Shown here in pieces: positions 8,513 through 30,137 of a DNA stretch of 64,000 nucleotides (position 1 is the first letter of the stretch; each line of letters starts with the position of its first letter). The notes under the pieces are model-generated. The model did no database searches, was not told where the DNA came from, and saw only the letters and a program-made list of their open reading frames with translations. Source of the DNA: Dehalococcoidia bacterium (lineage in GTDB: Bacteria; Chloroflexota; Dehalococcoidia; Lucifugimonadales; UBA2985). Position numbers and translations under genes: made by a program. The stretch spans positions 2,621,700 through 2,685,699 of the forward strand of contig OZ244718.1 in the NCBI GenBank assembly GCA_965218945.1, read 5' to 3'.

Positions 8513-8995
8513 TTAGAACAACCTCAACGACTCAGGCTCCTGCTGGTCTGCCTCTCCCTCGGTGGCCTCGGCCTGGGCCGCACCTTGCGAACGCCGTGGC
8601 TGACGCCTGACCGGGGAAGCGGGTCTCGCGTGCGCCGGATGCTTGGGTTCGTCCTCCCACCTGGCTCTTGCCCTTTCGACCACCGCCGGGACCTCCTGGG
8701 TCAGCCCGGATAGGTCAGGGTCATCGAAGGACTCGATGTGCGGGTCCGCCGAGGGCTGTTGCACCCCGATGGTGGCCCGGACTCCCTTGATGGACACCAC
8801 GACCTTCAGGTCCTCAGGCCCATCGATCTGCTCCTCGCCGTCCTCAGCGCCCTGAGGGTCCTGTTCGATCTCCTCGTTGTCTTTCAGTTCGTCGGCAACC
8901 GCAGCGGCTGCGTCGTCCGCCGCGTCGCCGAAGAGACTCTCGTCTGCGCTCGGGGCATCCGAGCGGGTTGCTTCCGTTCCAGTTTCGTCAGGCAT
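8513..8995 (-). CDS. Acidic hypothetical protein, last gene of the minus-strand block
   Basis: 160-aa ORF with D/E-rich termini and a central 'LKVVVSIKGVRATIGVQQP' segment. I recognise no family. Confidence 0.5.
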   Translation of the reverse strand: MPDETGTEATRSDAPSADESLFGDAADDAAAAVADELKDNEEIEQDPQGAEDGEEQIDGPEDLKVVVSIKGVRATIGVQQPSADPHIESFDDPDLSGLTQEVPAVVERARARWEDEPKHPAHARPASPVRRQPRRSQGAAQAEATEGEADQQEPESLRLF

Positions 8996-9047: not shown

Positions 9048-9420
9048 CTAGGCCGCTGTCCATCGCGACTGTCTCCTGATCTCGCCGAGGGTCTGCGGCT
9101 CCCAGTACAGGTCGCGCTCCACGGCGGGAACCTTTCCGAACACGGTTACTTCCGCCATCTCCGTGAGGTCGAAGTAGCCCAGTTCAGTCTCGAACCCTTC
9201 GACGAGGCCGAAGCACAGTCCGGTCTCGGGGTCCCACTCGGTGATGTACCAGCGCCAGCCGTTGTAGGGGGAGAACAGCTTCACCCTGGCAACGACGGCG
9301 TCGGGGTCGTCCGCGCCGTCATTGGCGTACAGGGGCGGGATCGTGTCGGCGAGCTCCTTGGTCATCAGCTTGTGTCCGCGGCGCTCGCTGTGGTTGTCCT
9401 TCCAGGTCGTGGTGGTCATC
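9048..9420 (-). CDS. DUF2958-family protein (common ICE/plasmid accessory protein)
   Basis: An internal ATG at 9420 gives 'MTTTTWKDN...IPPLYANDG...VKLFSPYNGWRWYITEWDPETGLCFGLVEGFETELGYFDLTEM...VERDLYWEP'. This matches the DUF2958 pattern I remember (LY..., FF.P...WtWY.tE, fGlV.G.e.ElGYfsl.EL). The upstream part of ORF 9048-9878 looks off-frame. Confidence 0.8.
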
Positions 9421-9475
9421 GCGTTTCCTTTCTCTTCAAGCATTGGTTTTCTGCTTGTTCCTTCTCTGATTGCGT

Positions 9476-10294
9476 CTACGTTCGCCAGGTCCCCGGCTCG
9501 GAGCCGGACGGCGCCACCCGCGCCACCGCCTCCGGGGTGGCGTAGGTCGGGGTGACAGAGCCCTGCTCCATGTCCAGGTAGAGGCCCATGAAGGGGCAGG
9601 AGCCCGCCACCATGCGGCGGACCACCTGTAAGACCAGCGACGCCATCATCTGGTTGATGGTGGGGTCCTGGTCGGTGAGGTCGAGGGCTGCCGCGCAGTC
9701 CACGTCCGGCGACCTGGTCGACACCGCCGTCAGCAGGTCGGGGCGCTGCACCGTGGGCGCGGGGAGCAGGTAGCAGGTCTCGTCGACGAAGGCGGGTTCG
9801 TCCCCAAAGTCCCGGTCGGCGACGTTCCCGACCAGGACCTGCCCCCAGTTGGTGTCGTTGCCCGCGTCGATGAGCCACCGGCGCGGGTCGCCCGGCAGGG
9901 ACTCGGCCATCGCCCTGCGTGCGGCGGCGTTGTCGGCGCAGCCGATGAGGAGGGAGTTCCCGTAGGAGGGAAGGCCGGGGTAGCGGCCCCCATCTGGGCG
10001 GGAGTCCTCCTCCCGGAAGGCGTAGACCGAGTAGCCGACGGGTCGCCGGTAGGCCCTGGCCAGCCGGTCGGCGAGGGCCTGGCTCTTGAAGTGCCCCACG
10101 TCCTCGGCGTAGAAGTTCTGGCGCAGCAGGTTGTGGGGCTCCACCCGGTCATGGTCGACCAGGACGATGGTGGCCTCCCGCCCCTGGAAGAGGCGGCAGA
10201 GGCCCTCGGCCACGAAGCCGCCGGTCCCGCCGCAGCCGACCACGGTGATCCAGGGATTGTCCAGCAGGAACGCGTTGTCCAGGTAGTAGGGCAT
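9476..10294 (-). CDS. ThiF/MoeB/E1-like adenylyltransferase (PRTRC ThiF-type)
   Basis: Rossmann motif 'VVGCGGTGGFVAEGL', then 'LVDHDRVEPHNLLRQNF'. The start is 2 nt after the JAB stop (TGAAAATG), with AAGGAGG upstream. Confidence 0.9.
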   Translation of the reverse strand: MPYYLDNAFLLDNPWITVVGCGGTGGFVAEGLCRLFQGREATIVLVDHDRVEPHNLLRQNFYAEDVGHFKSQALADRLARAYRRPVGYSVYAFREEDSRPDGGRYPGLPSYGNSLLIGCADNAAARRAMAESLPGDPRRWLIDAGNDTNWGQVLVGNVADRDFGDEPAFVDETCYLLPAPTVQRPDLLTAVSTRSPDVDCAAALDLTDQDPTINQMMASLVLQVVRRMVAGSCPFMGLYLDMEQGSVTPTYATPEAVARVAPSGSEPGTWRT

Positions 10295-10296
10295 TT

Positions 10297-10914
10297 TCAG
10301 GTTACCTCCTTGTCGTTGAAGTTGGTGTTGCGGGTCGGGTTAGGGCCGGAGAACACCTGCGGCCACTCCACCGGGGCGAAGTGGCCGTAGACCCCGACCC
10401 GGAGACGCAGCTCGGGCCGAAAGTCATCGAGGCGTCCGACGACCCCGTAGATGCGGAAGCCCTGCTCGTCCCGGTCGTCGGTGGCCGAGAAGAAGGCGCG
10501 GGAGCTTCCGTGGGAGTGGAACTCGGCGACCACGCCGGCAGGGGGCCGGTAGGTGAGGGACGCCGCGGTCCCAACCTGCGCGGGCGCCACCAGCCGGTAG
10601 GCGCGCCCGTCCCAGCGCACTGCGAAGAGCCGCTCGGTGTCCGGGGCGTCCTGGAACCAGCGCATCCCCTTCTCGAAGAGGCGCGCCGGGATGGGGCCGT
10701 TGGGCAGCGCCACCTTTTCGTCAACGGGAGCGAGCCCCCGCACCTCGCCGGGGGCCACCATTACCCGCGCCACCAGGTCAGCGCTCTGGGACTGGACGTA
10801 GACGCCCCCTGATCCCAGAACGTAGTCGTAGCCGATTCCCTGGACTCCGGCGAGTCCGGCGGGGTGGTTAACCAGGTAGCCCACCGGCCCCGGCGCCCCG
10901 CTAGCGGTAGCCAC
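10297..10914 (-). CDS. JAB/MPN (JAMM) metallopeptidase (PRTRC protein A-like)
   Basis: Intact JAMM motif 'EFHSHGSSRAFFSATDD' (HxHx7SxxD). I chose the GTG at 10914, which overlaps the upstream stop by 14 nt. The longest ORF extends to 10995. Confidence 0.8.
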   Translation of the reverse strand: MATASGAPGPVGYLVNHPAGLAGVQGIGYDYVLGSGGVYVQSQSADLVARVMVAPGEVRGLAPVDEKVALPNGPIPARLFEKGMRWFQDAPDTERLFAVRWDGRAYRLVAPAQVGTAASLTYRPPAGVVAEFHSHGSSRAFFSATDDRDEQGFRIYGVVGRLDDFRPELRLRVGVYGHFAPVEWPQVFSGPNPTRNTNFNDKEVT

Positions 10915-11605
10915 GTCTCCCCTCGGAGACCGCCATCGCCTGGCCCACCGTGCATTGGGGAACAAGGTCTTCAATCGGGTATGCAGTCTGTCCATCTAGC
11001 TCCTCCCATAGCGCTTGCAGGTTGTCGGGGTGCCTCTTCGAGCGGTCCCGGGTGTCTCCGGTAAGCGAGAAGAATGACCGGAAGAAGGACTCAGGCATCA
11101 GCCCAACCTCCTCGGGGAACCGGTGGCTTCCGGGGCAGACCCTCCCGTCTCTGAAGACGTTGAAGGCCGGGGCCCGGAAGAGGTGCTGCTCTGGGTCGGT
11201 CGGTCGGCCCGTTGCTGCGTAGACCCAGGGCGTTCGGCCCGGCGAGCAGACGAAGACCAACCCCGGCATGGGAAGCCGGAGCCGGGCGGGTGGCTTGAAC
11301 GCCTCCCGTTGCAGGGCCACCGACCACACCTGCGGCGGCCGCCACAGGGCCACCACCTGCCCGGTCTCGCCCTGGTTCCACCAGAGGGCGTCCTGGGGCA
11401 GCAGCCCCGAGGAGGACCCCAGGTGCTGGGTGAACACGTTGGCGATGGCGTCCGCCGAGACGGTCCTGACCCAGTTTGAGTCGTTCTCAAAGCCCCGAAG
11501 CAGGATGGTCTCCTTGTACACCTCCAGCTGCATCTGGATCTCGTCCTTTGCCGCATCCGCCGGACCCGGCAGGGACCATTCGGTCTTTTCGGCATCACTC
11601 GTCAT
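10901..11605 (-). CDS. E2/UBC-like protein (PRTRC protein B-like)
   Basis: 234 aa with a candidate catalytic-Cys segment 'FNVFRDGRVCPGSHRFP'. It sits between the F-position gene and JAB, as in PRTRC cassettes. The assignment rests on position and motif recall, not on a search. Confidence 0.65.
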   Translation of the reverse strand: MTSDAEKTEWSLPGPADAAKDEIQMQLEVYKETILLRGFENDSNWVRTVSADAIANVFTQHLGSSSGLLPQDALWWNQGETGQVVALWRPPQVWSVALQREAFKPPARLRLPMPGLVFVCSPGRTPWVYAATGRPTDPEQHLFRAPAFNVFRDGRVCPGSHRFPEEVGLMPESFFRSFFSLTGDTRDRSKRHPDNLQALWEELDGQTAYPIEDLVPQCTVGQAMAVSEGRRGYR

Positions 11606-12434
11606 CGTTTACCTCCTTTTCGTGATTGGGGAGCCGCTCCAGCGTGAAGTCCAGCATCTCGGCGAAGCGGCCGGGAAGGTCCTCCTCCAGCCAGTCGGCC
11701 AACCGGGTCACCGAGTCGATGAGGGCGCTGGCCTCGCGCCACTCCTCCGTGCCCGCATCGATGACCTCCTCCTCCCAGGGGTCGGAGAAGCCGTCGTAGT
11801 TCCCGTCCTCATAGCAGGCATCCAGGAAGAAGTTGCCCGTCTCGGCAAAGACCCAGGAGCAGGCCTGCGCCGCCCCCTCGAACCGGGTCTCCTTGAGCGC
11901 GTCGGTGAGGTCGTCCAGGGGTATGCCCCCCTGGGGAATTCTCTCCAATGTCTCCTGCGGGATGCGTTCGGCGGCCGACTCCAGCCAGGCCACCCGCAGC
12001 CCGTCGGGTCCGTCGTGGTAGGTGTCGGCGGGCTTGGCCAAGAGGACGAGGGACGAGATCCCCTCGCGGTAGCCGTCCCACATCTCGTGGAGGCCGTCGT
12101 AGCCGAAGCCCATCAGGTCAAAGGGGATGCCCTGCCTCAGCCAGGTCCAGGGAGGTTGGTCCCCCTCCTCCTCCGTCCAGAACTCGATGAACGGGGCGTA
12201 GAGGGGGAAGTGCCGCTCTCCGAAGAGCTGGCCGAACCGTTCCACCCTCGTGCGTATGTCTGGGGCCGCCAGCGCCGCATCCGCCTCCTGGGGAAAGAGG
12301 CGGCGCGCCAGCCCCGCGAACCATGCGTAGTCGTCGGCGTATCCGACCAGCGTGACCAGCTCCCGCAGCGACGGCGGACGCCGCAGGAGCAGTCCCGCCA
12401 GCCCGCTCAGTTGCGGCGGGGCCGCAGCTGCCAT
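11595..12434 (-). CDS. Hypothetical acidic protein in the PRTRC protein F position
   Basis: 279-aa ORF overlapping both neighbours (11 nt and 28 nt). No motif recognised. Confidence 0.55.
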   Translation of the reverse strand: MAAAAPPQLSGLAGLLLRRPPSLRELVTLVGYADDYAWFAGLARRLFPQEADAALAAPDIRTRVERFGQLFGERHFPLYAPFIEFWTEEEGDQPPWTWLRQGIPFDLMGFGYDGLHEMWDGYREGISSLVLLAKPADTYHDGPDGLRVAWLESAAERIPQETLERIPQGGIPLDDLTDALKETRFEGAAQACSWVFAETGNFFLDACYEDGNYDGFSDPWEEEVIDAGTEEWREASALIDSVTRLADWLEEDLPGRFAEMLDFTLERLPNHEKEVNDDE

Positions 12435-12637
12435 CGCAGCGCCTCCAGTAGCCGCCCCGTGGAGGCGGCGTAGTCCTGGGCCTGGAAGCAGGCCATCTCC
12501 ACCTCACCCTGCCGGGCGGCCGCGGCGTCCAGGTCGAAGGAGCCGTCGGGCCGTGTGAGCTCCGCCGTGAGCTCAAGGATTCTCAGGTCTGCCGGCGGCG
12601 TTGCCGCCATCAGACCGGCAAAGGTCCGGTTGTCCAT
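12407..12637 (-). CDS. Small hypothetical protein (76 aa)
   Basis: The ORF starts 12 nt downstream of the Ubl stop, on the same strand, and its composition is coding-like. Confidence 0.4.
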   Translation of the reverse strand: MDNRTFAGLMAATPPADLRILELTAELTRPDGSFDLDAAAARQGEVEMACFQAQDYAASTGRLLEALRWQLRPRRN

Positions 12638-12649
12638 CGGATGCCTCCT

Positions 12650-12856
12650 CTAGTTCCAGGCGTGGGGGAAGGCGCCCTTGGTGCCCACCCGCCGCTGGAA
12701 CTCGTAGATGGTGTCGTCGCCCCGCGTGGTCTCCTTGACCGAGGCGTTGGCGATCTCCCCGTAGAAGTCGCTCAGCGTTGCCTTCACCTGGTCGACGCTC
12801 ATCTGGGGGTCCGGGTCGGGGAACTCTCTGTCGTCGTATACGAATACTCTTGCCAT
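12650..12856 (-). CDS. Ubiquitin-like beta-grasp protein (PRTRC protein C-like)
   Basis: ATG at 12856 with GAAAAGGAG upstream. 'MARVFVYDDREFPDPDPQMSVDQVKATLSDFYGEIANASVKETTRGDDTIYEFQRRVGTKGAFPHAWN'. It matches the remembered PRTRC-C pattern (F.Y.g..lpDPdP.ms.e.Vk..y...yp.i..A........y.F.r.vGtKG). Confidence 0.8.
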   Translation of the reverse strand: MARVFVYDDREFPDPDPQMSVDQVKATLSDFYGEIANASVKETTRGDDTIYEFQRRVGTKGAFPHAWN

Positions 12857-12950: not shown

Positions 12951-15263
12951 CTAGCGTCCCGCGCCGACCGGCTCCTCATTTCCCTCCCGCTCCATGCTCA
13001 TCGCCCACTCGAACATCGAGAGGGTCGCGGGCTGCGACTTGCCCTTCCGACCGTTGGTCTTGACCGGCTCCTCGGCCATGAACTCCGTCCAGGAGAAGAG
13101 CGACTGGTGCCCCTCCTCCGACCCACCGTCGCGGTGGCCGTTGCCCCCGTATCCGGTACGGGGCAGGCCGTTACCGTTAACATCGACGGCCTCCGGCTCG
13201 ACCCCGTGTCGAGCACTGGGCAGGCTCTCGACCACCTTCCATCCGTCGTCCACCAGCAGCTCTTCGGCGCTGGCCTCGGCGTCCCTGGCCTGGGTGAACG
13301 CCGCCTCCACCGAATCTTGGTCATCGTCCTCTCCGCTGACGATCCTCCGGGCCAGGGCCAGCATCAGGTCGTCCCCGTCGTCTCCGTAGGCCGCCAGTCC
13401 GTCCTCCGGCAGCTCCCCCTCGACTGCCAGCGAGCTCTGCAGCTTCTTCGCCACCAGCTTTAGGGCGTCGGCCTGCAGGGTGTTCCGGTAGGCCATGAAC
13501 ACCACCTTCACCGGGCGGGTCTGCCCGATGCGCCACGACCGCCGCGACGCCTGCCGCATGACGTAGACCGAGTAATCCGTCTCGAACCAGCAGAGGGTCG
13601 GGAAGTCGATGAGGTCGAGGCCGGTCTGCACCAGCCTGGGGTGGCAGATCATCACGTCGATGCCCTGCTTGACCTTCTCCGCCACCCACGCCTCTCTCTT
13701 CTCCGGGGCCACCGCCTCGGCCTTCATCACTGCCACCCGGAAGCCGTGCCGGCTGAGCATGTCCTCCATCCTCCCCGTGATGTCCCTGGTCCCCGTGTGG
13801 GTGGCGTAGACCAGCACCCTTCGGCCCTCCATCCGCTCGGCGGCCACCAGGTCCACCAGGGCCTTCTCCTTTGGGTAGAGCTTCTCCTCGGACAGGGACG
13901 GAATCTGGACGATGATGTCGCCCGTCCGGGGGTCGAAGACCGTCTCCCCCCTGGTGCAGCCCTCGGGGTAGGCCAGGAGCGTCTGCAGGTAGGTCGCCAG
14001 CAGTCGCTTGGAGCCGGCCTTCAGCGCTTCCGCCAGCTTCTTTCTGAGCTCCTCGTACACGGTGTTGTAGGCGCTGCGCTGGGAGTAGCCCGTCGCGTCC
14101 TCCTCCGAGTCCATCGAGGACAGGAGGATCTGCTCGTCGTAGCCGGGCAGTCCCGACGCCACGTCCGAGAGACGCAGGAACACCGTGTTGCCGATGATGT
14201 GAAACAGGGCGCTGGGCACGAGGCCGGGCCGCTCCCTGACCACCCTGCGGAATTTGCGCCGGCGGCTGATGCGCCCGTCCTCCACCGCGTCGTCGTCCTT
14301 GCCGACGGTGACCTCCTCGAAGCCGTACCGCTGTATCCAGCGATGCTCCTCGGAGCGCCCGAACTCCGTCCTGATCTCCGGCGAGAACCGGTAGAGCAGG
14401 TGGAACAGCGTGCTCGAATACCCTCCCATCAGGGTTCCCGACAGGCTGAGGGACTTGCCGCAGGCGTCGGCGAGGACCCCTGCGGCGATGCCCTGGGCCG
14501 AGCCTCGGCCCTTGTACTCATGGACCTCGTCGCCAATGAGCAGGTCGAAGAAGCCCTTCATCCGGTTCTTCACGTAGTCGGCCAACGGGTAGCGGGCAGG
14601 GCCGGACCTGTCGGCCTGCCACAGAGGACCGCCGCAGTCGGCGCAGGTGTGCTTGCGGCGGTTCAGGTCGGCGTCCGTCAGTGGCACGCCGTCCCTGTCC
14701 ACGATCTGCGCCGTGCAGCCGGGGCAGCAGGGGACCCGGAAGGGCTCCCCCGTCTCCTCGCCCCGCAGCAGCCTGCCCCTGGAGACGGCCCACCGCTGGT
14801 TGACGGCGGGCATCCAGCGGTAGGACAGCTTCGCCTTCTCCCGCGACATGACGGCGAAGAGGGGGCCGGGGCCCGTGGAGAGACGGAGCCGCTCCAGGTC
14901 GGTGATGGATCTGACGATGACGGCGCGGGCGCCGGGCGCCGTCATCTCCACCTCCCGCTTCCACTTGGGCACGAGATGCGGCGGCCCCAGCACGAGGACC
15001 CGCTTGAAGCCCGCCATGTGCGCTGCGGCTACGGCGATGAAGGTCTTGCCCGTTCCCATCTCGCCGACGACGGTGGTGCCCCGGTGGACCTCGAGGGAGA
15101 GGGCCGCGCCCCTGATGGCGTCGGCCTGCGCCCCCAGGGGCTTGCGGAGCAGGCGGGGGAGCCTGCGGCCGTTCTCCGAGGGCCGGTAGAGGGGCGGGTA
15201 GGACTCCACCACTCTTCTGGCGATGGCGTCCCTGAACGTGTCGATGAACTCTCCGAGGTTCAT
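12951..15263 (-). CDS. SNF2-family helicase with an internal zinc ribbon
   Basis: ATG at 15263. Motif I is 'GEMGTGKT', motif II is 'IGDEVHEYKG', and the zinc ribbon is 'CCPGC...CADCGG'. A C-terminal helicase lobe reads 'VLVYATHTG...LVQTGLDL'. The N-terminal 132 aa of the long ORF look off-frame. Confidence 0.9.
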   Translation of the reverse strand: MNLGEFIDTFRDAIARRVVESYPPLYRPSENGRRLPRLLRKPLGAQADAIRGAALSLEVHRGTTVVGEMGTGKTFIAVAAAHMAGFKRVLVLGPPHLVPKWKREVEMTAPGARAVIVRSITDLERLRLSTGPGPLFAVMSREKAKLSYRWMPAVNQRWAVSRGRLLRGEETGEPFRVPCCPGCTAQIVDRDGVPLTDADLNRRKHTCADCGGPLWQADRSGPARYPLADYVKNRMKGFFDLLIGDEVHEYKGRGSAQGIAAGVLADACGKSLSLSGTLMGGYSSTLFHLLYRFSPEIRTEFGRSEEHRWIQRYGFEEVTVGKDDDAVEDGRISRRRKFRRVVRERPGLVPSALFHIIGNTVFLRLSDVASGLPGYDEQILLSSMDSEEDATGYSQRSAYNTVYEELRKKLAEALKAGSKRLLATYLQTLLAYPEGCTRGETVFDPRTGDIIVQIPSLSEEKLYPKEKALVDLVAAERMEGRRVLVYATHTGTRDITGRMEDMLSRHGFRVAVMKAEAVAPEKREAWVAEKVKQGIDVMICHPRLVQTGLDLIDFPTLCWFETDYSVYVMRQASRRSWRIGQTRPVKVVFMAYRNTLQADALKLVAKKLQSSLAVEGELPEDGLAAYGDDGDDLMLALARRIVSGEDDDQDSVEAAFTQARDAEASAEELLVDDGWKVVESLPSARHGVEPEAVDVNGNGLPRTGYGGNGHRDGGSEEGHQSLFSWTEFMAEEPVKTNGRKGKSQPATLSMFEWAMSMEREGNEEPVGAGR
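13144..13167 (-). repeat. Palindromic element copy a (CCTGCCCCGTACCGGATACGGGGG)
   Basis: 7-bp stem CCCCGTA/TACGGGG with a 5-nt loop. It lies in the C-terminal tail of the SNF2 helicase and is read as 'GLPRTGYGG'. Confidence 0.6.
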
Positions 15264-15442
15264 GTGAGTCGTCCTCCTTTTCCGTGGTGGGCCGGAGAAC
15301 GACGCCGGGAGCCGGGCGCACCACGCCCCCTGGCGGGGACGTTTCCGGTGCGACAAGCTCCTGGAAACGTCCCCAGGCTGTGGTTGAACGTGCGAGGGTC
15401 CCGCCGCAGACGGGCCTCGTGATGCGGCTCGGTGTGAGCCGT

Positions 15443-15652
15443 CTATGCGGCTTTCAGGGCCTCCCTGCGGGCGGCTTGTTCCGCCTTTGCCTCGTCGTAG
15501 CAGCGTCCGCTGAGGTGGTATGTCTTCACCGGGGAGGAGACGGCCCTGCCGTTCATGTCCAGGTCCACCGAGGCGGTCTGCATGGCGGGTTCGCCGGGAG
15601 CGATGGGCTGCCCGCACCGGGCGCAGGCGTCGAGGGTCATGGTCGTCTGCAT
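15443..15652 (-). CDS. Small Cys-containing protein (69 aa)
   Basis: 'LDACARCGQPI...HLSGRCYDEAK'. The 3' end plus downstream hairpin duplicate those of the methyltransferase gene. Confidence 0.45.
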   Translation of the reverse strand: MQTTMTLDACARCGQPIAPGEPAMQTASVDLDMNGRAVSSPVKTYHLSGRCYDEAKAEQAARREALKAA

Positions 15653-15767
15653 GTCTCAACCTCTCTTTCCTTCGTGGGGTGTTGGTTTTCCGTCCGAGCG
15701 GAGCGAGGCCCCGCGGGTTCCCGGTAGAGGGAAGGCGGGGCCTTGTGTGCGGCTCAGTGCGAGCCGT

Positions 15768-16805
15768 CTATGCTGCGATGTCGGTGATCTCGCCGCCGTA
15801 CAGGTCCAGGGCGACGACGGTGGTCGTGAGCTTCTCCCGGTGGACCTCCTTCTCCGGGGAGTCCTCCACCATGACCATCTCCTTCGAGGTCCTCCCCTTG
15901 ACCAGGATGCGCCGCCCGTCCGCTTCCAGGACGAGGTTGTCGAGGAAGCCCGCCGACACCAGCATCGCCATGTGGCCCCTTCTGAGGGGCATCAGTGGAC
16001 GGGTGCGGGTGTCCCTCGCGGGCCAGAGTGTGTCGGTGACCTCAGCGCTGGTCCACAATCCCGACCGCCGCGCCTCGGCAGCAGCAGCGACGGGATCGAC
16101 GGTGCGGGTGGTGAAGAGGATGTCCCCGCTGGGCGTGGTCTCCGGGCTGTAGTCCGTGTAGGGGTGGGAGCGCAGCGGCTCCGGCTCCCCCACCGCCCAC
16201 TCCAGCACCATGCGCTCGGCGTGGGCGTCGGGAACGGGATCGGCCTTCCGGTAGGCCAAGAGCGCCACCTGGTCGAATACCTGCCGCTCCGGGTCGGGGA
16301 AGGCCCAGCATCGCATATACCCGTAGTGGGTGGACAGGTAGCGGGCCGAGACCGCCAGGCGCTGCCTGGGAACGATGAAGACCAGCAGGCCGCCATCGGC
16401 CAAGTAGCGGGTCGTGTGCGTCAGGAAGGCGTGCTCCGTCCGCTTGTCCTCCGAGTCGTAATCGTAGGGCGGATTGAGCAAGAGCAGCCCGAAGGCCCCG
16501 TTCGCTATCGACGTGGCGAAGAGGTCCGAGGCCAGGGCGTGGTCGAGCCGCTCCTCCGCCTCCTGCGCCCGGTCCCGGTGCAGCTCGACGCCGTAGGTCT
16601 CGATGGGGATGGCGTTGGGCCTGTCCAGCCGCTGGGCCAGCTGCGCCAGCGCCTCTCCGGCCCCGCAGCACGGGTCGAGGATGCGCAGCGTGTTCCGGCC
16701 CCGGTTGTAGTAGCCGGAGGGGGTGTTAATCAGCTCCGCGATCAGGTCGACGACCCTGGGCGGTGTGGGGTAGAATCCGCCCTTTGCCTGTGCAGCGAGT
16801 CTCAT
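15768..16805 (-). CDS. SAM-dependent N6-adenine DNA methyltransferase
   Basis: Motif I is 'ILDPCCGAGE' and motif IV is 'LLLNPPYD'. The start overlaps the upstream stop (ATGA). Confidence 0.85.
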   Translation of the reverse strand: MRLAAQAKGGFYPTPPRVVDLIAELINTPSGYYNRGRNTLRILDPCCGAGEALAQLAQRLDRPNAIPIETYGVELHRDRAQEAEERLDHALASDLFATSIANGAFGLLLLNPPYDYDSEDKRTEHAFLTHTTRYLADGGLLVFIVPRQRLAVSARYLSTHYGYMRCWAFPDPERQVFDQVALLAYRKADPVPDAHAERMVLEWAVGEPEPLRSHPYTDYSPETTPSGDILFTTRTVDPVAAAAEARRSGLWTSAEVTDTLWPARDTRTRPLMPLRRGHMAMLVSAGFLDNLVLEADGRRILVKGRTSKEMVMVEDSPEKEVHREKLTTTVVALDLYGGEITDIAA

Positions 16806-17239
16806 GTCGATTCTCCTTTCAACTGAGTGTCGTCCGTCGTCTTCAGGCCCACCACCTCGCCTGTGCCCAGGGTCCGCTGGTAGCAGAGAACCTGGGGAGC
16901 GCCCATCTCCAGGGCGCAGGCCGTGCAGAAGGCCGTGACTATCTCCGCCTCCCTGGACACCGTCATGCGCCTAACCGGCATCTTGCCGCCGTCCGGCCTC
17001 CGGTGCGTGTAGAGCATCACCGAGGTGTCGGCGACCTCGTCGGGCGTGGCCGGCCTGTAGAAGTGGGGCTGGCCCGAGGTCGACAGGTGCGTTGTGTTGT
17101 CGTGGGGGCAGAAGGGGCAGAGCCTGCCCCGTACTAGATACGGGGTCTTCCCGTCGGGGGAGAACCTCTGCCACGCCCTGAAGTTCCGGGCCCGCCTGCG
17201 CCTGTTGCCCCGCCTGGGCCGGTTCAGCATCCTATCCAT
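16802..17239 (-). CDS. Small basic zinc-ribbon protein
   Basis: ATG at 17239 overlaps the upstream stop (ATGGATAG). The Cys pairs are 'CPFCPHD' and 'FCTAC'. It contains palindromic element copy b in-frame. Confidence 0.5.
   Translation of the reverse strand: MDRMLNRPRRGNRRRRARNFRAWQRFSPDGKTPYLVRGRLCPFCPHDNTTHLSTSGQPHFYRPATPDEVADTSVMLYTHRRPDGGKMPVRRMTVSREAEIVTAFCTACALEMGAPQVLCYQRTLGTGEVVGLKTTDDTQLKGEST
17123..17145 (+). repeat. Palindromic element copy b (CCTGCCCCGTACTAGATACGGGG)
   Basis: It lies inside CDS 16802-17239, antisense to the gene, and is read as 'KTPYLVRGR'. Confidence 0.6.
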
Positions 17240-17885
17240 CGCTCTCCTCCTCCCTGGGCAGGGTGAGCCGGCCCGAAGCCACCGCCAGGGAGAGGTCCTC
17301 CCTGAGCGTCTTCCCGTCTGGGCTGCACCGGTAGGCCGTGATGCCCACCGACTGGAGGGGGACTGTCTCCCCCGTGTCCAGTCCCCGTTGCCAGAGCCAC
17401 TCCGCCCAGGAGCCGTGCAGGGGCAGCGGGCTGCGATTGTCGAGGAAGCGGTGGTGCAGCGCGGGCGCTTCCTCCCCCGCCTGCGCCAGCAGCAGGAAGC
17501 TGTCCCGCTCGAATCCGTACTCGGCGGTCTTGGTGTATACGAGCGCGTGCCAGCCGCCGGAGACCGGCAACCGGGCGATCTTGGTCGTCCACGTTCCGAT
17601 AGTCTCGTGGGGAACGACGCACCGCTTGTAAGCGCCCGAGAGGGCCATGCCGTCCGCGCCCTCGATGATGTGGGCAACGTCCGGCGGCTGCTTGAGCAGG
17701 GATGCCCAAATCGCCTTGAGCGCCGTCTGGGAGCCGACCATCGAGACGAACCAGAGGCCGTCCGTCTCCTCGTCGCGGGCGAAGGCGTCGGCGGTTGCCG
17801 AGAAGCCCCCGGCGCTAATGGTGTACAGAACTTGCCCCGTACTCGATACGGGGGCTTCGGGGTCCATTGTGTGAGTCGCGAGCAT
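17232..17885 (-). CDS. Hypothetical protein (217 aa)
   Basis: Coding-like composition, translationally coupled to the next gene. It contains palindromic element copy c near its N-terminus. Confidence 0.5.
   Translation of the reverse strand: MLATHTMDPEAPVSSTGQVLYTISAGGFSATADAFARDEETDGLWFVSMVGSQTALKAIWASLLKQPPDVAHIIEGADGMALSGAYKRCVVPHETIGTWTTKIARLPVSGGWHALVYTKTAEYGFERDSFLLLAQAGEEAPALHHRFLDNRSPLPLHGSWAEWLWQRGLDTGETVPLQSVGITAYRCSPDGKTLREDLSLAVASGRLTLPREEESDG
17831..17854 (+). repeat. Palindromic element copy c (CTTGCCCCGTACTCGATACGGGGG)
   Basis: It lies inside CDS 17232-17885 and is read as 'APVSSTGQV'. Confidence 0.6.
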
Positions 17886-17999
17886 TGCGACCTCCTTGCG
17901 TGTGAGTTGGGAACGATGCGCGGGGAGCGCTCCCCGGCGTGAGAGCCCGACGGCGTGCGCCGTCCGGTCGTGGAGCGCCCGTCCCGTAGAGGAGGCGGG

Positions 18000-18509
18000 T
18001 CAGGGCATCAGCCCCCGTTCCTTGAGGCTGACGAACCGCTCGCCGCCGATGACCACGTGATCCAGCAGCTCGATGTCCAGCAATTTGCCCGCCTGGACCA
18101 GATCGCGGGTGAGGGCCGCGTCCTCGGGGCTAGGCGTCGGGTCCTGGCTGGGATGGTTGTGGCTGATAATGATGCTGGGGACGGCCTCGATGACCGCCGG
18201 GCGGAAGACCTCGGCATTCCTCACGATGGCCGAGGACACGTTGCCCTGGTAGATGACCCGCTGACCCACAACCTGGTTCCTGGCGTTGAGAAGCAGCACC
18301 CGCATCTGCTCCTGGGCCAGGGGAGCCATCTCCGGCCCCAGCAGCCTGCGCACGTCGTCGGGGCAGGAGATGACGGGTAGGTCTTCCGTGGGGCGCTCCG
18401 GGTGGAACTCCACGTCGTAGCGCGCCGCCAGCTCTCCCAGCAGGTTCAGGTTGCTGCGAAGCGCCTCAAGCAGCGCGGCGTCCTTGGTGGTGGTCTTCTT
18501 CATGGTCAT
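18000..18509 (-). CDS. radC: RadC-family JAB-domain protein
   Basis: 'IISHNHPSQDPTPSPEDAALTRDL...LLDHVVIG' is the canonical RadC JAMM motif. AAGGAGG lies 5 nt upstream of the ATG. Confidence 0.9.
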   Translation of the reverse strand: MTMKKTTTKDAALLEALRSNLNLLGELAARYDVEFHPERPTEDLPVISCPDDVRRLLGPEMAPLAQEQMRVLLLNARNQVVGQRVIYQGNVSSAIVRNAEVFRPAVIEAVPSIIISHNHPSQDPTPSPEDAALTRDLVQAGKLLDIELLDHVVIGGERFVSLKERGLMP

Positions 18510-18615
18510 GTCGGCCTCCTTCGCTATCGGTTGGAACAGAGGCGGGGCCGCCCCTGTGGAGGGAAGCGGCCCCGTGGGTGCGCCCTCGGGAAGGCGTCGC
18601 TATGGGGTTGTGGGA

Positions 18616-18993
18616 CTAGAAGGGAGAGGCGTCGTCCGCCTGACCGTCGTCGCCGTCGTCCTGCCCGCCGTTGCGGGAGTCGAGGAAGACGACCTCGGAG
18701 GCGTGAATCTCGGTGCGGTACCGTCGCTGTCCGTCGTCCCCCTCCCAGCTGTTCTGCACCAGACGTCCGGCCACGTACACCCGCTGGCCCTTGCCGACGT
18801 ACTGGTTCACCGCCTCGGCGGTCTTGCCCCAGACGACGATGCTGTGCCAGTCTGCCTCGGTCTCCCCGTCCTGGCGGCGGCGGTCGGTGGCCAGCCGCAG
18901 CTGAACGACGGCGGTGCCGTTCGGGGTGTACTTCATCTCGGGATCCGTGCCGACCCTGCCCAAGAGCTCTACCTTGTTGATGGTGCGTGCCAT
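18616..18993 (-). CDS. ssb: Single-stranded DNA-binding protein
   Basis: 'INKVELLGRVGTDPEMKYTPNGTAVVQLRLAT...WHSIVVWGKTAE...GKGQRVYVAGRL', with an acidic tail ending 'DDASPF'. Confidence 0.92.
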   Translation of the reverse strand: MARTINKVELLGRVGTDPEMKYTPNGTAVVQLRLATDRRRQDGETEADWHSIVVWGKTAEAVNQYVGKGQRVYVAGRLVQNSWEGDDGQRRYRTEIHASEVVFLDSRNGGQDDGDDGQADDASPF

Positions 18994-19108
18994 TTCGGTT
19001 CCTCCTTAATGTTCTGGCGCTGGCCTTGCCGCGCCCGGTTGAATGAGAGCGGGGCCGTCCCCTGTAGAAGAGGATGACGGCCCCGTCCAGCGTTCCCTAT
19101 GGGAGCGT

Positions 19109-20272: not shown

Positions 20273-20385
20273 GTCGCTATCCTCCTTTGTCCTTTGTCCT
20301 GCAAATGTCCTGTAAATGGGAAGCGGGGCCGCCCCCGTTGGAGACAGCCCCGCTCGATTCCACGCTCTCGATTGTCGGCAGCCGT

Positions 20386-20787
20386 TCATGCGGCCTTCGC
20401 TTCCACCGCCTGCGCCGCCTCTCGCTCCTCCGTGGCCTTCAGGTGCGCCTTGAGGACGTGCGCTATCCCGTCGCCGAGGCCGAGGACCGCCACGCTCCTG
20501 CCGTCGGGCATCCGGTTGAAGAAGGGCTGCATCTCCTGAATCCCCCGGCACTGGTCGATGATTTCCTCGACCGGCGTACCTCTCCGCAGGTGCAGGGAGA
20601 TCAGCCGGCAGGCCAGCTCGGTGACGCCGTGCTGGAAGCTGCCTCCCTTGCCCAGCCAGCCGAAGACCTCGAAGGGCTCGCCGTCCTCGTCCGTCGAGAC
20701 GGTCACGTAGAGGTTGCCGAACTCCGTCTGGAGCTTGGTCGTCGTGCTGGGCAGGCTGCGGGGCCTGGGCCGTGTCGTCGCGGTCAT
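20386..20787 (-). CDS. Stand-alone TSCPD-like domain protein lacking the family cysteines
   Basis: ATG at 20787 (ATGA overlap). 'FGNLYVTVSTDEDGEPFEVFGWLGKGGSFQHG..ELACRLISLHLRRGTPVEEIIDQCRGI' resembles the RNR C-terminal TSCPD domain. Confidence 0.65.
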   Translation of the reverse strand: MTATTRPRPRSLPSTTTKLQTEFGNLYVTVSTDEDGEPFEVFGWLGKGGSFQHGVTELACRLISLHLRRGTPVEEIIDQCRGIQEMQPFFNRMPDGRSVAVLGLGDGIAHVLKAHLKATEEREAAQAVEAKAA

Positions 20788-21290: not shown

Positions 21291-21383
21291 GGCTCGTAAC
21301 CTCCTTGTCCTGTAAATGGAGAGCGGGGTCGTCTCTTTCGGGGCGGCCCCGCTCGATTCCGAACCCGGCGATGGACCGGCCGG

Positions 21384-28062: not shown

Positions 28063-28088
28063 GCGGACGAAGAAGGGAGGAACGAGAC

Positions 28089-30118: not shown

Positions 30119-30137
30119 AGAAAAGGAATCTACCGAA

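What the first reader, a model, noticed from the sequence alone, without database searches (positions are those of the whole stretch)
9476..12856. Complete ubiquitin-like conjugation cassette (Ubl, E2-like, JAB, E1) in PRTRC gene order, without ParB, inside a monoderm-type ICE
Seven tightly packed or overlapping genes lie on the minus strand, in this order:
- A 68-aa beta-grasp Ubl.
- A 76-aa ORF.
- A 279-aa acidic protein.
- An E2-like protein with 'FRDGRVCPGSH'.
- A JAB peptidase with an intact JAMM motif 'HSHGSSRAFFSATD'.
- A ThiF/E1 adenylyltransferase with 'GCGGTGG'.

The order C-(x)-F-B-A-ThiF is that of the PRTRC cassette (ParB-Related, ThiF-Related Cassette). That family has no established function and is mostly known from proteobacterial plasmids and ICEs.

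Three things differ here:
- No ParB gene is present anywhere in the window.
- The carrier element has a PrgI/VirB4/Replic_Relax-type transfer apparatus.
- The host flank (yacL-ispD-ispF-cysS synteny, candidate selenoprotein) does not look proteobacterial.

Biochemically the parts list equals that of Bil-type Ubl-E1-E2-JAB antiphage systems. However, the cassette is co-oriented with ssb, radC, an orphan methyltransferase, an SNF2 helicase and a primase. That neighbourhood resembles an ICE establishment or anti-defence (leading-region-like) module. An element-encoded protein-conjugation system acting during transfer or establishment would be a new function.
Basis: partly seen in the sequence, partly recalled or inferred. 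Interest (0 to 1): 0.85.

Follow-up and report, generated by a model that had tools for sequence, protein, structure and literature searches.

The report
ParB-less ubiquitin-like conjugation cassette in ICE
A mobile DNA element in an uncultured Chloroflexota (Dehalococcoidia) bacterium carries an intact ubiquitin-like tagging kit of a type known since 2006 whose function is still unknown. This version and its cyanobacterial plasmid relatives suggest that the kit acts on DNA replication rather than on phages.

Summary
Window 9476-12856 (minus strand) encodes Ubl (PRTRC_C/Prok_Ub), a 76-aa ORF, a 279-aa all-alpha protein, an E2 (Prok-E2_D), a JAB peptidase and a ThiF-type E1, all with intact catalytic motifs. 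Gene order matches PRTRC, and no ParB was found.

The kind is already known: it is row "6d" of Iyer et al. 2006, also called PRTRC. ParB-less relatives with the same order are common on cyanobacterial plasmids.

The host is Dehalococcoidia. The cassette sits in the conserved backbone of an ICE family found in about 57 species-level genomes, with up to 4 copies per genome. All cassette genes are under purifying selection.

New leads:
- The Ubl is a precursor. '...GTKG' is invariant and is followed by a 2-10 aa hypervariable tail. In several cyanobacteria the Ubl is fused to the small X protein.
- The 279-aa protein belongs to a large family with a confident fold that has no PDB match. It has no detectable link to PRTRC_F.
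- An acidic partner protein ends in a conserved TLRLF. Its cyanobacterial counterparts end in QLSLF, QLTLF or QISLF, which resemble the beta-clamp-binding motif, and dnaN is often adjacent.

Verdict: a new variant of a known but uncharacterised system. A replication-linked role is inferred, not shown.

The parts
12650..12856 (-). Ubl precursor, 68 aa. The mature end is predicted at Gly61 (codon 12674-12676). A 7-aa tail AFPHAWN (12653-12673) follows.
   Evidence: PRTRC_C scores above its cutoff and Prok_Ub scores 58.5 bits. '...YEFQRRVGTKG' is near-invariant in 78 related loci (3 single-residue variants within GTKG), and the tail after it varies in sequence and in length, 2-10 aa. Canonical PRTRC_C proteins stop exactly at KG.
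12407..12637 (-). x76, a small protein of 76 aa. It is positionally equivalent to the small 'X' ORF or domain that follows the Ubl in other cassettes.
   Evidence: Conserved in 78 of 80 loci at a median 85.5% identity, with dN/dS 0.32. It has its own start, and its frame relative to the Ubl differs among loci, so there is no readthrough. An ORF of 68-84 aa holds the same position in Pseudanabaena, Planktothrix, Ralstonia, Sulfuricystis and Pseudomonas-type plasmids. In six cyanobacterial plasmid types that position is fused to the Ubl. Sequence homology is only weakly supported (hhalign E=0.012).
11595..12434 (-). F279, a 279-aa acidic all-alpha protein in the position of PRTRC protein F. Role unknown; it may be an adaptor, an E3-like factor or a substrate.
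   Evidence: Its family has 515 clusters at 50% identity. The AF2 model has pLDDT 90.7 and pTM 0.85. Foldseek finds nothing significant in PDB or BFVD (best E 1.9 and 1.8). hhalign gives 95.6% to the Chlorohelix and 86.9% to the Anabaena protein in the same position, but 0.1% to Aromatoleum PRTRC_F. None of 64 family members hit any NCBIfam model.
10901..11605 (-). E2-like conjugating enzyme, 234 aa. Catalytic Cys157 is at codon 11135-11137 and Asn149 at 11159-11161.
   Evidence: Prok-E2_D E=1.2e-18. P114, P146, N149, G154, C157 and G159 are invariant across 48 sequences down to 18% identity. The motif APxxNx4GxxC matches the E2 HPN...C motif with His replaced, as described for row 6d. The AF2 model is of moderate confidence (pLDDT 74) and Foldseek gives no significant hit.
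10297..10995 (-). JAB/JAMM metallopeptidase, 232 aa. The JAMM motif is at 10477-10518 and Glu121 at 10633-10635. It is the predicted Ubl-processing and deconjugating enzyme.
   Evidence: Prok-JAB scores 26.9 bits, and PRTRC_A is the best NCBIfam hit. E121, H160, H162, S170 and D173 are invariant.
9476..10294 (-). ThiF/MoeB-type E1 adenylyltransferase, 272 aa. GCGGTGG is at 10217-10237. The candidate catalytic Cys200 is at 9695-9697.
   Evidence: ThiF Pfam hit, and PRTRC_ThiF is the best NCBIfam hit. The nearest solved structures are E. coli ThiF (2e-10), UBA6, SAE2, MccB, Cap2 and BubCD, and only the Rossmann half matches.
9048..9443 (-). DUF2958 protein, the next gene in the same operon.
   Evidence: PF11171 E=1.8e-9. 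Syntenic in 76 of 80 loci.
8513..8995 (-). acid160, an acidic 160-aa protein and the last gene of the operon. It has a conserved C-terminal ...(Q/E)(T/A/S)LRLF. It resembles PRTRC protein E and the cyanobacterial E' proteins in architecture only. It is a candidate sliding-clamp-binding partner.
   Evidence: About 74 of 76 related loci end in LRLF, and one more ends in LKLF. Cyanobacterial E' proteins directly upstream of the Ubl end in QLSLF, QLTLF, QISLF, QITLF or QMTLL. Homology to these proteins or to PRTRC_E is not statistically supported.
12951..23420 (-). Co-oriented upstream block of the same ICE backbone: SNF2-like helicase, DUF6094 methyltransferase, unknown, RadC, SSB, unknown 671 aa, Rad52, DnaG-type primase.
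   Evidence: Pfam hits. Synteny with the cassette across related loci.
26658..39111 (.). Transfer and integration module of the carrier ICE: TrbL/VirB6, PrgI-like, VirB4, T4CP and Replic_Relax relaxase on the + strand, then the tyrosine integrase (37695-38966, -) and tRNA-Ala(cgc) (39038-39111, -), which marks the right end.
   Evidence: GC drops from about 0.68 to about 0.60 near 38-39 kb.

Best explanation
The cassette is a working ubiquitin-like protein-conjugation cascade. It belongs to the conserved backbone of an integrative conjugative element (ICE) of Dehalococcoidia. It most likely acts on proteins of DNA replication or processing while the element replicates or establishes itself, rather than defending against phages.

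Proposed mechanism:
1. The 68-aa pre-Ubl is trimmed by the JAB peptidase after Gly61. This is inferred from the sharp conservation boundary and from Ubl-X fusions in relatives.
2. The ThiF-type E1 adenylates Gly61 and probably forms a thioester on Cys200. This is inferred from invariant residues.
3. The Ubl passes to Cys157 of the E2. Also inferred.
4. The Ubl is transferred to lysines of unknown targets. F279 and x76 may act as specificity factors, regulators or first substrates. This step is speculative.
5. JAB also reverses the modification. Inferred.

The last operon gene, acid160, carries a conserved C-terminal (T/A/S)LRLF. Its cyanobacterial counterparts carry canonical QL[ST]LF. I propose that this motif docks the system onto the beta sliding clamp.

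What is shown: gene content, intact motifs, purifying selection, backbone synteny, the precursor architecture and the motif conservation. Everything biochemical is inferred.
For: - Family assignments and motifs.
- All genes are conserved and under purifying selection in 75-80 of 80 loci from about 57 genomes. They are always flanked by the same SNF2/MTase/RadC/SSB side and the same DUF2958/acid160 side.
- The Ubl GTKG is near-invariant and the tail after it is hypervariable. Canonical PRTRC_C proteins end at KG. Ubl-X is fused in Anabaena, Sphaerospermopsis, Brasilonema, Leptolyngbya, Nostoc-type and Chondrocystis plasmids.
- C-terminal motif: LRLF in about 74 of 76 loci. Motifs of the Q[LIM][ST]L[FL] type occur at the extreme C-terminus of E' in six distinct cyanobacterial plasmid types, while the preceding linker varies.
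- dnaN lies within about 12 kb of the cassette in Anabaena, Sphaerospermopsis, Brasilonema, pQBR103-type and Sulfuricystis plasmids. In Sulfuricystis it is directly upstream of PRTRC E.
- Other recurrent neighbours are SSB, primase, prim-pol, DEAD, RecG and UvrD helicases, ExoI, Gp157, Rad52, AlkB and Fpg.
- The clamp-binding consensus QL[SD]LF comes from my own knowledge (Dalrymple et al. 2001). It was not retrieved here.
Against: - There is no experimental evidence for any member of this operon family. Forty-three papers mention PRTRC, and none of the 30 listed is a functional study of the cassette.
- Homology of acid160 to the cyanobacterial E' proteins or to PRTRC_E is not statistically supported.
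- The window motif TLRLF deviates from the consensus: there is no Gln at position 1 of the pentapeptide, and Arg sits at position 3.
- Proteobacterial PRTRC_E tails are not canonical (ALNF, LASLL, AELF, PLVG).
- dnaN is absent near most cassettes, including this one.
- All loci were selected through the E2, so ICE relatives that lack the cassette could not be sought.
- The UBC fold of the E2 was not confirmed by structure search.
- The targets are unknown.
Confidence: 0.42

Rival explanations
1. Anti-defence or establishment function. The element-encoded Ubl is conjugated to recipient defence proteins, such as restriction or other immune effectors, or to element proteins. This would inactivate, relocalise or degrade them soon after transfer, alongside the orphan methyltransferase and SSB.
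For: - The cassette is co-oriented in one long block with SSB, RadC, DUF6094 MTase, SNF2 helicase, Rad52 and primase. That gene set resembles plasmid leading regions.
- A perfect 16-bp inverted repeat at 25933-25968 lies between this block and the T4SS/relaxase block. If it is oriT, the block would be on the leading side.
Against: - The position and polarity of oriT are unknown.
- The cassette lies 13-16 kb from the candidate oriT.
- Many relatives sit on non-mobilizable plasmids next to replication genes.
- No known anti-defence family matched.
- This reading does not explain the clamp-type motif or the dnaN linkage.
Confidence: 0.17
2. Bil-like immunity cargo. The Ubl is conjugated to proteins of an invading phage or of a competing mobile element to block its propagation, which protects the host cell and the ICE.
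For: [quoted passage not shown]
- ICEs often carry defence genes.
- The neighbouring SNF2 and MTase give weak PADLOC hits: DpdE and ZorD (E 1e-8 to 1e-10) and mad2.
- The Anabaena copy lies next to a type III-B CRISPR module.
Against: - No PADLOC model matches the Ubl, E2, JAB, F279 or x76. The E1 matches only CBASS E1-E2 models, over about 70 Rossmann residues.
- The cassette occupies a fixed backbone position with constant neighbours. Its divergence is backbone-like (median dS 0.32-0.38, against 0.50-0.55 for the two flanking backbone genes), not that of a variable hotspot.
- Across phyla its neighbours are replication and recombination genes, not defence islands.
- The Pseudomonas-type cassettes lack JAB.
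Confidence: 0.15
3. Addiction or maintenance module. The opposing conjugation (E1+E2) and deconjugation (JAB) activities on a cellular target make loss of the element deleterious. Iyer et al. 2006 raised this idea.
For: - Iyer et al. speculate along these lines.
- The system is restricted to plasmids and ICEs.
- Several ICE copies persist per genome.
Against: - There is no differential-stability pair and no toxin-like component.
- Pseudomonas-type cassettes lack the JAB 'antidote'.
- Canonical TA genes occur separately nearby on some plasmids.
Confidence: 0.07
4. Not a protein-conjugation system. The E1 and Ubl act as a ThiS/MoaD-like carrier pair, for sulfur or for biosynthesis of another small molecule. 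Alternatively the cassette is inert.
For: - The nearest solved relative of the E1 is E. coli ThiF.
- The E2 fold was not confirmed by structure search.
Against: - The E2 active-site motif, with its invariant Cys and Asn, and a complete JAMM peptidase are conserved across phyla.
- There are no sulfur-transfer or cofactor genes nearby.
- Purifying selection acts on all genes.
- The precursor and fusion architecture requires proteolytic release, as in protein modifiers.
Confidence: 0.04

Closest known systems
PRTRC (ParB-Related, ThiF-Related Cassette; NCBIfam/TIGRFAM TIGR03734-TIGR03742), e.g. Aromatoleum pEbN1, pQBR103, pWW53, Ralstonia pB1902
   Same: - The order C-(x)-F-B-A-ThiF is the same.
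- PRTRC_C scores above its cutoff. PRTRC_A, PRTRC_B and PRTRC_ThiF are the best NCBIfam hits.
- It is carried on mobile elements next to DNA-metabolism genes.
- Its function is likewise unknown.
   Different: - There is no ParB.
- A, B and ThiF score well below the curated cutoffs (59.5 against 101.8, 68 against 131, 100.9 against 144.75).
- The proteins in the F and E positions show no detectable similarity to PRTRC_F or PRTRC_E.
- The E-like gene sits at the 3' end of the operon, not upstream of C.
- The Ubl has a C-terminal tail, whereas PRTRC_C ends at KG.
Operon type '6d' of Iyer, Burroughs & Aravind 2006 (PMC1779556): Ubl + JAB + E1 + E2 + novel alpha-helical protein
   Same: - The five-part composition is exactly the same.
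- The E2 lacks the classical HPN histidine.
- The partner is a rapidly diverging alpha-helical protein.
- Members are found on mobile elements. Anabaena was already listed.
   Different: - Chloroflexota were not listed.
- The 'absolutely conserved His C-terminal to the Cys' was not seen. His161 is clade-specific.
- The additional conserved partners (x76, DUF2958, acid160) and the precursor and fusion architecture were not described there.
ParB-less cassettes on cyanobacterial plasmids (Anabaena pANACY.02, Brasilonema, Leptolyngbya, Pseudanabaena, Nostoc, Planktothrix) and on the Chlorohelix (Chloroflexota) plasmid. Annotated only as 'prokaryotic E2 ligase family D / Mov34 / ThiF'.
   Same: - These are the closest relatives outside the ICE family.
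- They carry the same F279-family protein (hhalign 87-96%), a Ubl followed by X, then E2-JAB-E1, and no ParB.
- Their neighbours are replication and repair genes.
   Different: - E' lies directly upstream of the Ubl and ends in canonical QL[ST]LF.
- The Ubl is often fused to X.
- They are carried on MPF_T/MOBP plasmids of diderm cyanobacteria, not on a monoderm-type ICE.
- Sequence identity to the window proteins is only 23-34%.
Bil (bacterial ISG15-like) type I/II antiphage operons
   Same: They have separate Ubl, E2, JAB and E1 genes, and a JAB that can process and deconjugate. The predicted chemistry is the same.
   Different: - No HMM match and no match to solved structures for the Ubl, E2 or JAB.
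- There are extra conserved partners: F279, x76 and acid160.
- The context is an MGE backbone, not a defence island.
- No phage link is seen.
Bub ('6E'/DUF6527) operons and CBASS type II Cap2/Cap3
   Same: They are E1/E2/JAB-related bacterial conjugation machinery. The Rossmann half of the E1 is weakly similar to Cap2 (3e-8) and BubCD (1e-5).
   Different: - There is no DUF6527 protease.
- There are no E1-E2 or JAB-E1 fusions.
- There is no CD-NTase substrate.
Eukaryotic ubiquitin/Ubl precursors and PCNA ubiquitination/SUMOylation (analogy only)
   Same: The Ubl is made with a C-terminal tail, or as a fusion protein, that must be cleaved after the terminal Gly. A possible link to the sliding clamp comes from a clamp-binding-type motif.
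   Different: There is no evidence of homology of the pathway logic. The clamp link rests on a short motif plus gene neighbourhood.

Membership tests
PRTRC (NCBIfam TIGR03734-03742) | PRTRC-type ParB protein (TIGR03734) in the cassette | tested here: not met
   No ParB domain was found in any scanned window ORF. tblastn with Aromatoleum ParB, and an HMM built from two PRTRC ParBs run against six-frame ORFs of the window plus 80 related loci, gave nothing below E=0.2. The left end of the ICE is off-window, so a distant ParB cannot be fully excluded.
PRTRC (NCBIfam TIGR03734-03742) | Protein C (Ubl) scores above the curated cutoff | tested here: met
   TIGR03738 scores 50.0 bits against a cutoff of 45.95.
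PRTRC (NCBIfam TIGR03734-03742) | Proteins A, B and ThiF score above their curated cutoffs | tested here: not met
   A scores 59.5 against 101.8, B 68 against 131.45, and ThiF 100.9 against 144.75. Each is nevertheless the top NCBIfam hit.
PRTRC (NCBIfam TIGR03734-03742) | Proteins E and F present | tested here: not met
   There were no NCBIfam hits for F279, acid160 or x76, even at E<=10 for acid160 and x76. None of 64 F279-family members hit any NCBIfam model. hhalign of the F279 family against Aromatoleum PRTRC_F gives 0.1% probability.
PRTRC (NCBIfam TIGR03734-03742) | Gene order C-F-B-A-ThiF | tested here: met
   The window order is Ubl-x76-F279-E2-JAB-ThiF. pEbN1 reads E-C-F-B-A-ThiF, and Ralstonia and Sulfuricystis read E-C-x-F-B-A-ThiF.
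Iyer et al. 2006 operon type 6d | [quoted passage not shown] | tested here: met
   The F279 model is all-alpha with pLDDT 90.7.
Iyer et al. 2006 operon type 6d | E2 with a conserved Cys but lacking the classical HPN histidine | tested here: met
   The motif A145-P146-x-x-N149...C157 is present, and N149 and C157 are invariant in 48 sequences.
Iyer et al. 2006 operon type 6d | Absolutely conserved His C-terminal to the catalytic Cys | tested here: inconclusive
   The window has His161 (CPGSH). Chlorohelix, Anabaena, Deinococcus, Aromatoleum and pQBR103 have N, N, T, A and C at that column. Which histidine the authors meant could not be checked.
UBC/E2 superfamily | UBC fold | tested here: inconclusive
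   The Pfam Prok-E2_D match is E=1.2e-18. The AF2 topology alpha-(beta meander)-Cys loop-3 helices is compatible, but the model is of moderate quality (pLDDT 74.2). Foldseek finds no significant PDB hit; the best UEV-type hit is Tsg101 at E=1.2.
Ubiquitin-like beta-grasp modifiers | Beta-grasp domain ending in a conserved C-terminal Gly that is exposed or exposable | tested here: met
   Prok_Ub scores 58.5 bits. GTKG is near-invariant and is followed by a hypervariable tail, or by a fused X domain in relatives. The fold itself was not modelled.
JAMM/JAB metallopeptidases | Motif E...HxHx7Sx2D | tested here: met
   E121, H160, H162, S170 and D173 are invariant.
E1/ThiF/MoeB adenylyltransferases | GxGxxG nucleotide loop, Arg finger, Mg-binding Asp, crossover-loop Cys | tested here: met
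   G20, G22, G23, G25, R58, Q59, D121 and C200 are invariant. Assigning C200 as the catalytic residue is an inference.
Bil type I/II antiphage systems | Sequence membership of the Ubl, E2 and JAB in Bil families | tested here: not met
   No PADLOC hit for the Ubl, E2 or JAB. No hit to any solved chain. That PADLOC 2.0 contains Bil/ISG15-like models is my recollection and was not checked.
Bil type I/II antiphage systems | Protection against phage through Ubl conjugation to a virion protein | not testable with these tools
   This needs experiments.
Bub (6E/DUF6527) | DUF6527 serine protease plus fused Ubl-E2, JAB-E1 or E2-E1 proteins | tested here: not met
   All components are separate genes, and no DUF6527 hit was found. 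The family definition comes from PMC11601603.
Beta-clamp-binding proteins | Accessible QL[SD]LF-type motif that binds DnaN | tested here: inconclusive
   A motif-like C-terminus is conserved: (T/A/S)LRLF in the ICE family, and QLSLF, QLTLF, QISLF, QITLF or QMTLL in cyanobacterial E' proteins. Binding was not tested, and the consensus is cited from memory.

The most novel reading that the evidence does not exclude
The cassette would be a bacterial counterpart of clamp-centred ubiquitin/SUMO signalling. The acidic E-like protein docks on the beta sliding clamp through its C-terminal QLxLF-type motif. The Ubl, released from its precursor or from its X fusion by JAB, is then conjugated to the clamp or to clamp-bound replisome or repair proteins. 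In this way the mobile element would control its own replication or repair, or take over the host's, after excision or transfer.
Probability: 0.12. Interest if true: 0.9.

Novelty: new variant of a known kind. Interest (0 to 1): 0.55.

Why it matters
The 6d/PRTRC operon is one of the last bacterial E1-E2-JAB-Ubl families with no known function and no solved structure. Bil, Bub and CBASS Cap2/3 have all been resolved as conjugation systems.

This analysis does three things:
- It defines a ParB-less clade that spans cyanobacterial plasmids and a very successful ICE family of Dehalococcoidia.
- It shows that the modifier is made as a precursor or as a fusion protein.
- It gives a concrete and inexpensive hypothesis to test: clamp binding by the E-like partner, and replisome-linked targets.

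If the hypothesis is right, protein tagging at the replication clamp would not be a eukaryotic invention. Mobile elements would also gain a new kind of control over replication.

Tried and rejected
- **Stop-codon readthrough or selenocysteine joining the Ubl and x76.** Rejected. The two ORFs are in frame in the window, but across 78 loci the frame offset is 1 in 52, 0 in 20 and 2 in 6, all three stop codons are used, and x76 has its own start.
- **F279 = PRTRC_F.** No support. The Deinococcus protein in the same position also failed.
- **acid160 = PRTRC_E or cyanobacterial E'.** hhalign and NCBIfam results were not significant. I keep this only as a resemblance in architecture and motif.
- **x76 = cyanobacterial X.** The alignment is colinear but weak (E=0.012, probability 3.6%).
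- **Function of F279 from its fold.** The model is confident, but PDB and BFVD gave no hit.
- **UBC fold of the E2 by Foldseek.** Inconclusive.
- **Left att site.** There is no second copy of the tRNA-Ala 3' end in the window, so the ICE's left boundary is unknown.
- **Promoter and terminator scan of 7.8-26.7 kb.** Not above the shuffle expectation.
- **Rfam.** Only the tRNA was found.
- **Literature.** Searches on PRTRC, Prok-E2, leading-region anti-defence and clamp motif with Ubl found no functional study.
- **ICE relatives lacking the cassette.** This could not be tested.

Full report
**1. What is there**

The first ~38-39 kb of the window have GC 0.65-0.70. The remainder has GC about 0.55-0.63. 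GC3-based gene calling and ORF listing give a tightly packed minus-strand run across the reported interval. HMM searches assign these genes as follows:
- 12650-12856: a 68-aa Ubl. TIGR03738 PRTRC_C scores 50 bits, above its cutoff of 45.95. PF14454 Prok_Ub scores 58.5 bits.
- 12407-12637: a 76-aa ORF with no hit.
- 11595-12434: a 279-aa acidic protein with no hit.
- 10901-11605: an E2. PF14460 Prok-E2_D has E=1.2e-18. PRTRC_B scores 68 bits, below its cutoff.
- 10297-10995: a JAB peptidase. It hits PF14464, and PRTRC_A scores 59.5 bits, below its cutoff.
- 9476-10294: a ThiF-type E1. PRTRC_ThiF scores 100.9 bits, below its cutoff.

The operon continues with DUF2958 (9048-9443) and an acidic 160-aa protein (8513-8995).

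**2. Are the parts intact and real?**

I aligned the window proteins with homologues of only 18-36% identity from Chlorohelix, Anabaena, Deinococcus, Aromatoleum and Pseudomonas plasmids. The following residues are invariant:
- E2: P114, P146, N149, G154, C157, G159. This is an HPN-like 'AP..N' followed by the Cys.
- JAB: E121, H160, H162, S170, D173. This is the complete JAMM motif.
- E1: the GxGGxG loop, D47, N55, R58, Q59, K70, D121 and C200.

His161 of 'CPGSH' is not conserved outside the clade.

In 80 related loci the whole block is syntenic. It runs acid160-DUF2958-ThiF-JAB-E2-F279-x76-Ubl-SNF2-MTase-unknown-RadC-SSB. Median amino-acid identity ranges from 70% to 93%, and the Ubl is the most conserved gene. 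Every cassette gene, including the 76-aa ORF, has dN/dS between 0.22 and 0.42.

**3. Carrier and host**

Upstream on the same strand lie an SNF2-like helicase, a DUF6094 methyltransferase, RadC, SSB, a Rad52-family protein and a DnaG-type primase. On the plus strand lie TrbL/VirB6, a PrgI-like protein, VirB4, a coupling protein and a Replic_Relax relaxase. These are followed by a P4-type tyrosine integrase next to tRNA-Ala(cgc). No second copy of the tRNA 3' end occurs in the window, so the left end of the element is off-window.

The host CysS (47623-49005) is 100% identical to a protein on a 3.15-Mb contig. Its named relatives are Chloroflexota, Dehalococcoidia and SAR202. A scan of one genome per species found 236 loci that encode an E2 relative. 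The best 80, at 79-93% identity, are all in Dehalococcoidia or Chloroflexota MAGs, apart from one 8-kb contig binned as a gammaproteobacterium. They fall in about 57 genomes, with up to four copies per genome. The labels 'monoderm-type ICE' and 'non-proteobacterial host' are therefore correct.

**4. Comparison with what is known**

Canonical PRTRC on Aromatoleum pEbN1 reads ParB-E-C-F-B-A-ThiF. pQBR103-type and pWW53-type plasmids read ParB-E-C-(x)-F-B-ThiF and have no JAB. Ralstonia reads ParB-E-C-x-F-B-A-ThiF.

The operon type was described in 2006 as row '6d' of Iyer, Burroughs and Aravind: a Ubl, JAB, E1, E2 and 'novel alpha-helical protein'. It was already recorded there in beta- and delta-proteobacteria, Bacillus, Anabaena and Bacteroides (PMC1779556). 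The kind is thus not new, and it is not restricted to proteobacteria.

Forty-three papers mention PRTRC. None of the 30 listed is a functional study of the cassette. Bub operons correspond to '6E'/DUF6527, and Bil operons are the antiphage Ubl/E2/JAB/E1 systems (PMC11601603). The window proteins are not members of either family by sequence:
- PADLOC models matched nothing except the Rossmann segment of the E1, which hit CBASS E1-E2 models.
- Profile and sequence searches of all PDB chains found nothing for the E2, JAB or Ubl.
- For the E1 they found only generic relatives: ThiF 2e-10, UBA6, SAE2, MccB, Cap2 3e-8 and BubCD 1e-5.

**5. ParB**

None of the Pfam-scanned proteins of the element carries a ParB domain. 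tblastn with Aromatoleum ParB found nothing. An HMM of two PRTRC ParBs, run against all six-frame ORFs of the window and the 80 loci, gave nothing below E=0.2.

Absence of ParB is not peculiar to this element. None of the 13 cyanobacterial plasmid loci examined (about nine distinct types) has an annotated ParB next to the cassette: Anabaena, Sphaerospermopsis, Brasilonema, Stanieria, two Pseudanabaena, Leptolyngbya, three Nostoc, Aulosira, Chondrocystis and Planktothrix. The same holds for the Chlorohelix (Chloroflexota) plasmid and the betaproteobacterial Sulfuricystis plasmid.

**6. A distinct ParB-less clade**

The 279-aa protein has a large family of its own, with 515 clusters at 50% identity. 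None of 64 diverse members hits any NCBIfam model, including PRTRC_F. Profile comparison links the family to the proteins in the same position in Chlorohelix (95.6%) and Anabaena (86.9%). It does not link it to Aromatoleum PRTRC_F (0.1%) or to the Deinococcus protein (0.9%).

An AlphaFold model built on that alignment is confident (pLDDT 90.7, pTM 0.85) and all-alpha. It has no significant structural neighbour in the PDB or in BFVD. A 'TGNxxLD' signature and several aromatic and proline positions are conserved.

The E2 model is of moderate quality (pLDDT 74.2). Its topology is compatible with a UBC core preceded by a small beta unit, but Foldseek gives no significant hit. The fold test is therefore inconclusive, and the E2 assignment rests on the Pfam match and the active-site motif.

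**7. The Ubl is made as a precursor**

In 78 related loci the sequence '...YEFQRRVGTKG' is near-invariant; three loci have a single substitution within GTKG. Whatever follows differs in sequence and in length (2-10 residues). Canonical PRTRC_C proteins end exactly at KG.

In Anabaena, Sphaerospermopsis, Brasilonema, Leptolyngbya, the Nostoc/Aulosira type and Chondrocystis, the Ubl continues after KG into a domain of about 80 residues. In Pseudanabaena and Planktothrix that domain is a separate ORF of 83-84 aa in the position of x76. A small ORF of 68-75 aa also sits between C and F in Ralstonia, Sulfuricystis and Pseudomonas-type plasmids.

Readthrough between the Ubl and x76 is excluded, because their relative frame varies among loci. 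Sequence similarity between x76 and the cyanobacterial X is colinear but weak (E=0.012), so I treat the two as positional equivalents. The simplest reading is that a peptidase, presumably the cassette's JAB, must cut after Gly61 before activation. This parallels eukaryotic Ub/Ubl precursors.

**8. A lead to the replisome**

The last operon gene, acid160, ends in (Q/E)(T/A/S)LRLF in about 74 of 76 loci. The low-complexity linker before the motif varies.

In the cyanobacterial cassettes, the gene directly upstream of the Ubl has the same build: an acidic N-terminus, a small central domain and a low-complexity linker. These proteins end at the very C-terminus as follows:
- QLSLF in Brasilonema and Planktothrix.
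- QLTLF in Anabaena and Sphaerospermopsis.
- QISLF in four plasmids of the Nostoc/Aulosira type.
- QITLF in Leptolyngbya.
- QMTLL in two Pseudanabaena plasmids.
- Chondrocystis is the exception.

These match the bacterial beta-clamp-binding consensus QL[SD]LF. I cite that consensus from my own knowledge (Dalrymple et al. 2001).

Independently, dnaN lies within about 12 kb of the cassette in five plasmid types: Anabaena, Sphaerospermopsis, Brasilonema, pQBR103-type and Sulfuricystis. In Sulfuricystis it is directly upstream of PRTRC E. Other recurrent neighbours are SSB, primases, DEAD, RecG and UvrD helicases, ExoI, Gp157, AlkB and Fpg.

Caveats:
- Homology of acid160 to E' or to PRTRC_E is not statistically supported.
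- The window motif is a variant of the consensus.
- Proteobacterial PRTRC_E tails are not canonical.

**9. Interpretation**

What is shown:
- A complete, intact and selected Ubl/E1/E2/JAB set is present.
- It is fixed in the backbone of a highly successful Dehalococcoidia ICE family.
- It belongs to the 6d/PRTRC kind but to a ParB-less clade shared with cyanobacterial plasmids.

What is inferred:
- The Ubl is processed at Gly61, adenylated by the E1, passed as a thioester to Cys157 of the E2, conjugated to targets and removed again by JAB.

My preferred functional reading is that the module acts on element or host DNA-replication and DNA-processing proteins, possibly recruited to the sliding clamp by acid160. 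This rests on the backbone position, the cross-phylum neighbourhood and the C-terminal motif. I give it about 0.4. The data do not exclude any of them.

**10. Verdict**

The claimed distinctiveness is overstated, because ParB-less relatives outside proteobacteria were already on record. This is a new variant of a known, still uncharacterised system. Its value lies in the testable leads it provides: precursor processing, the novel-fold partner family and the clamp-binding-type motif. It is not a new category.

Noticed in passing
window 2-7804 (+), runs off the window start: A giant protein of at least 2600 aa with LRR, fibronectin-III and Calx-beta repeats has the ICE's GC content. Relatives (36-84% identity, variable segments) occupy the same place, just beyond acid160 and the HTH gene, in 40 of 80 related Dehalococcoidia loci. 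Eukaryote-like repeat proteins therefore look like cargo of this ICE family.
   Followed up: partly
window 17117-17145, 17825-17853, 24283-24311 (degenerate copy 19945-19973); L001-L080: A short palindromic element, TGCCCCGTAYnnGATACGGGG (7-bp stem), recurs within the minus-strand block. It is found in both orientations in 28 of 80 related loci at recurrent spots, including about 300 nt upstream of the Ubl gene in several. It is REP/MITE-like, and its function is unknown.
   Followed up: partly
window 25933-25968: A perfect 16-bp inverted repeat, TCTATAACGGGGCGCA-cacc-TGCGCCCTGTTATAGA, lies in the divergent intergenic region between the DNA-processing block and the T4SS/relaxase block. It is a candidate oriT or operator.
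   Followed up: no
L001-L080 (genome contigs): The ICE family is multi-copy. The 80 best loci fall in about 57 species-representative Dehalococcoidia/Chloroflexota genomes. Seventeen genomes hold 2-4 copies that differ by 5-20% at the protein level.
   Followed up: partly
L099 (Sulfuricystis pSTJ1) 5366-10995: This canonical-looking PRTRC cassette (E-C-x-F-B-A-ThiF) has no ParB. dnaN sits directly upstream of PRTRC E, and dnaG lies nearby.
   Followed up: no
L084, L100, L102-L105 (Pseudomonas pQBR103/pWW53-type plasmids): These PRTRC cassettes lack the JAB gene (protein A) altogether, and their F-position protein is much larger (424-488 aa). Deconjugation and processing are therefore dispensable there, which fits a Ubl that already ends at KG.
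   Followed up: no
L090 7-10 kb (Chlorohelix-like contig): An IS21-family element (Mu-transposase-type transposase gene plus istB) is inserted immediately upstream of the F-like gene, where the Ubl and E' genes would be expected. That copy is probably decayed.
   Followed up: no
window 12951-16970 (-): The SNF2-like helicase upstream of the Ubl contains a Cys-rich insertion (CCPGC...CADCG). It is paired with a DUF6094 methyltransferase. Both give weak PADLOC hits (DpdE/ZorD, mad2), and both are conserved with the cassette in the ICE family.
   Followed up: partly
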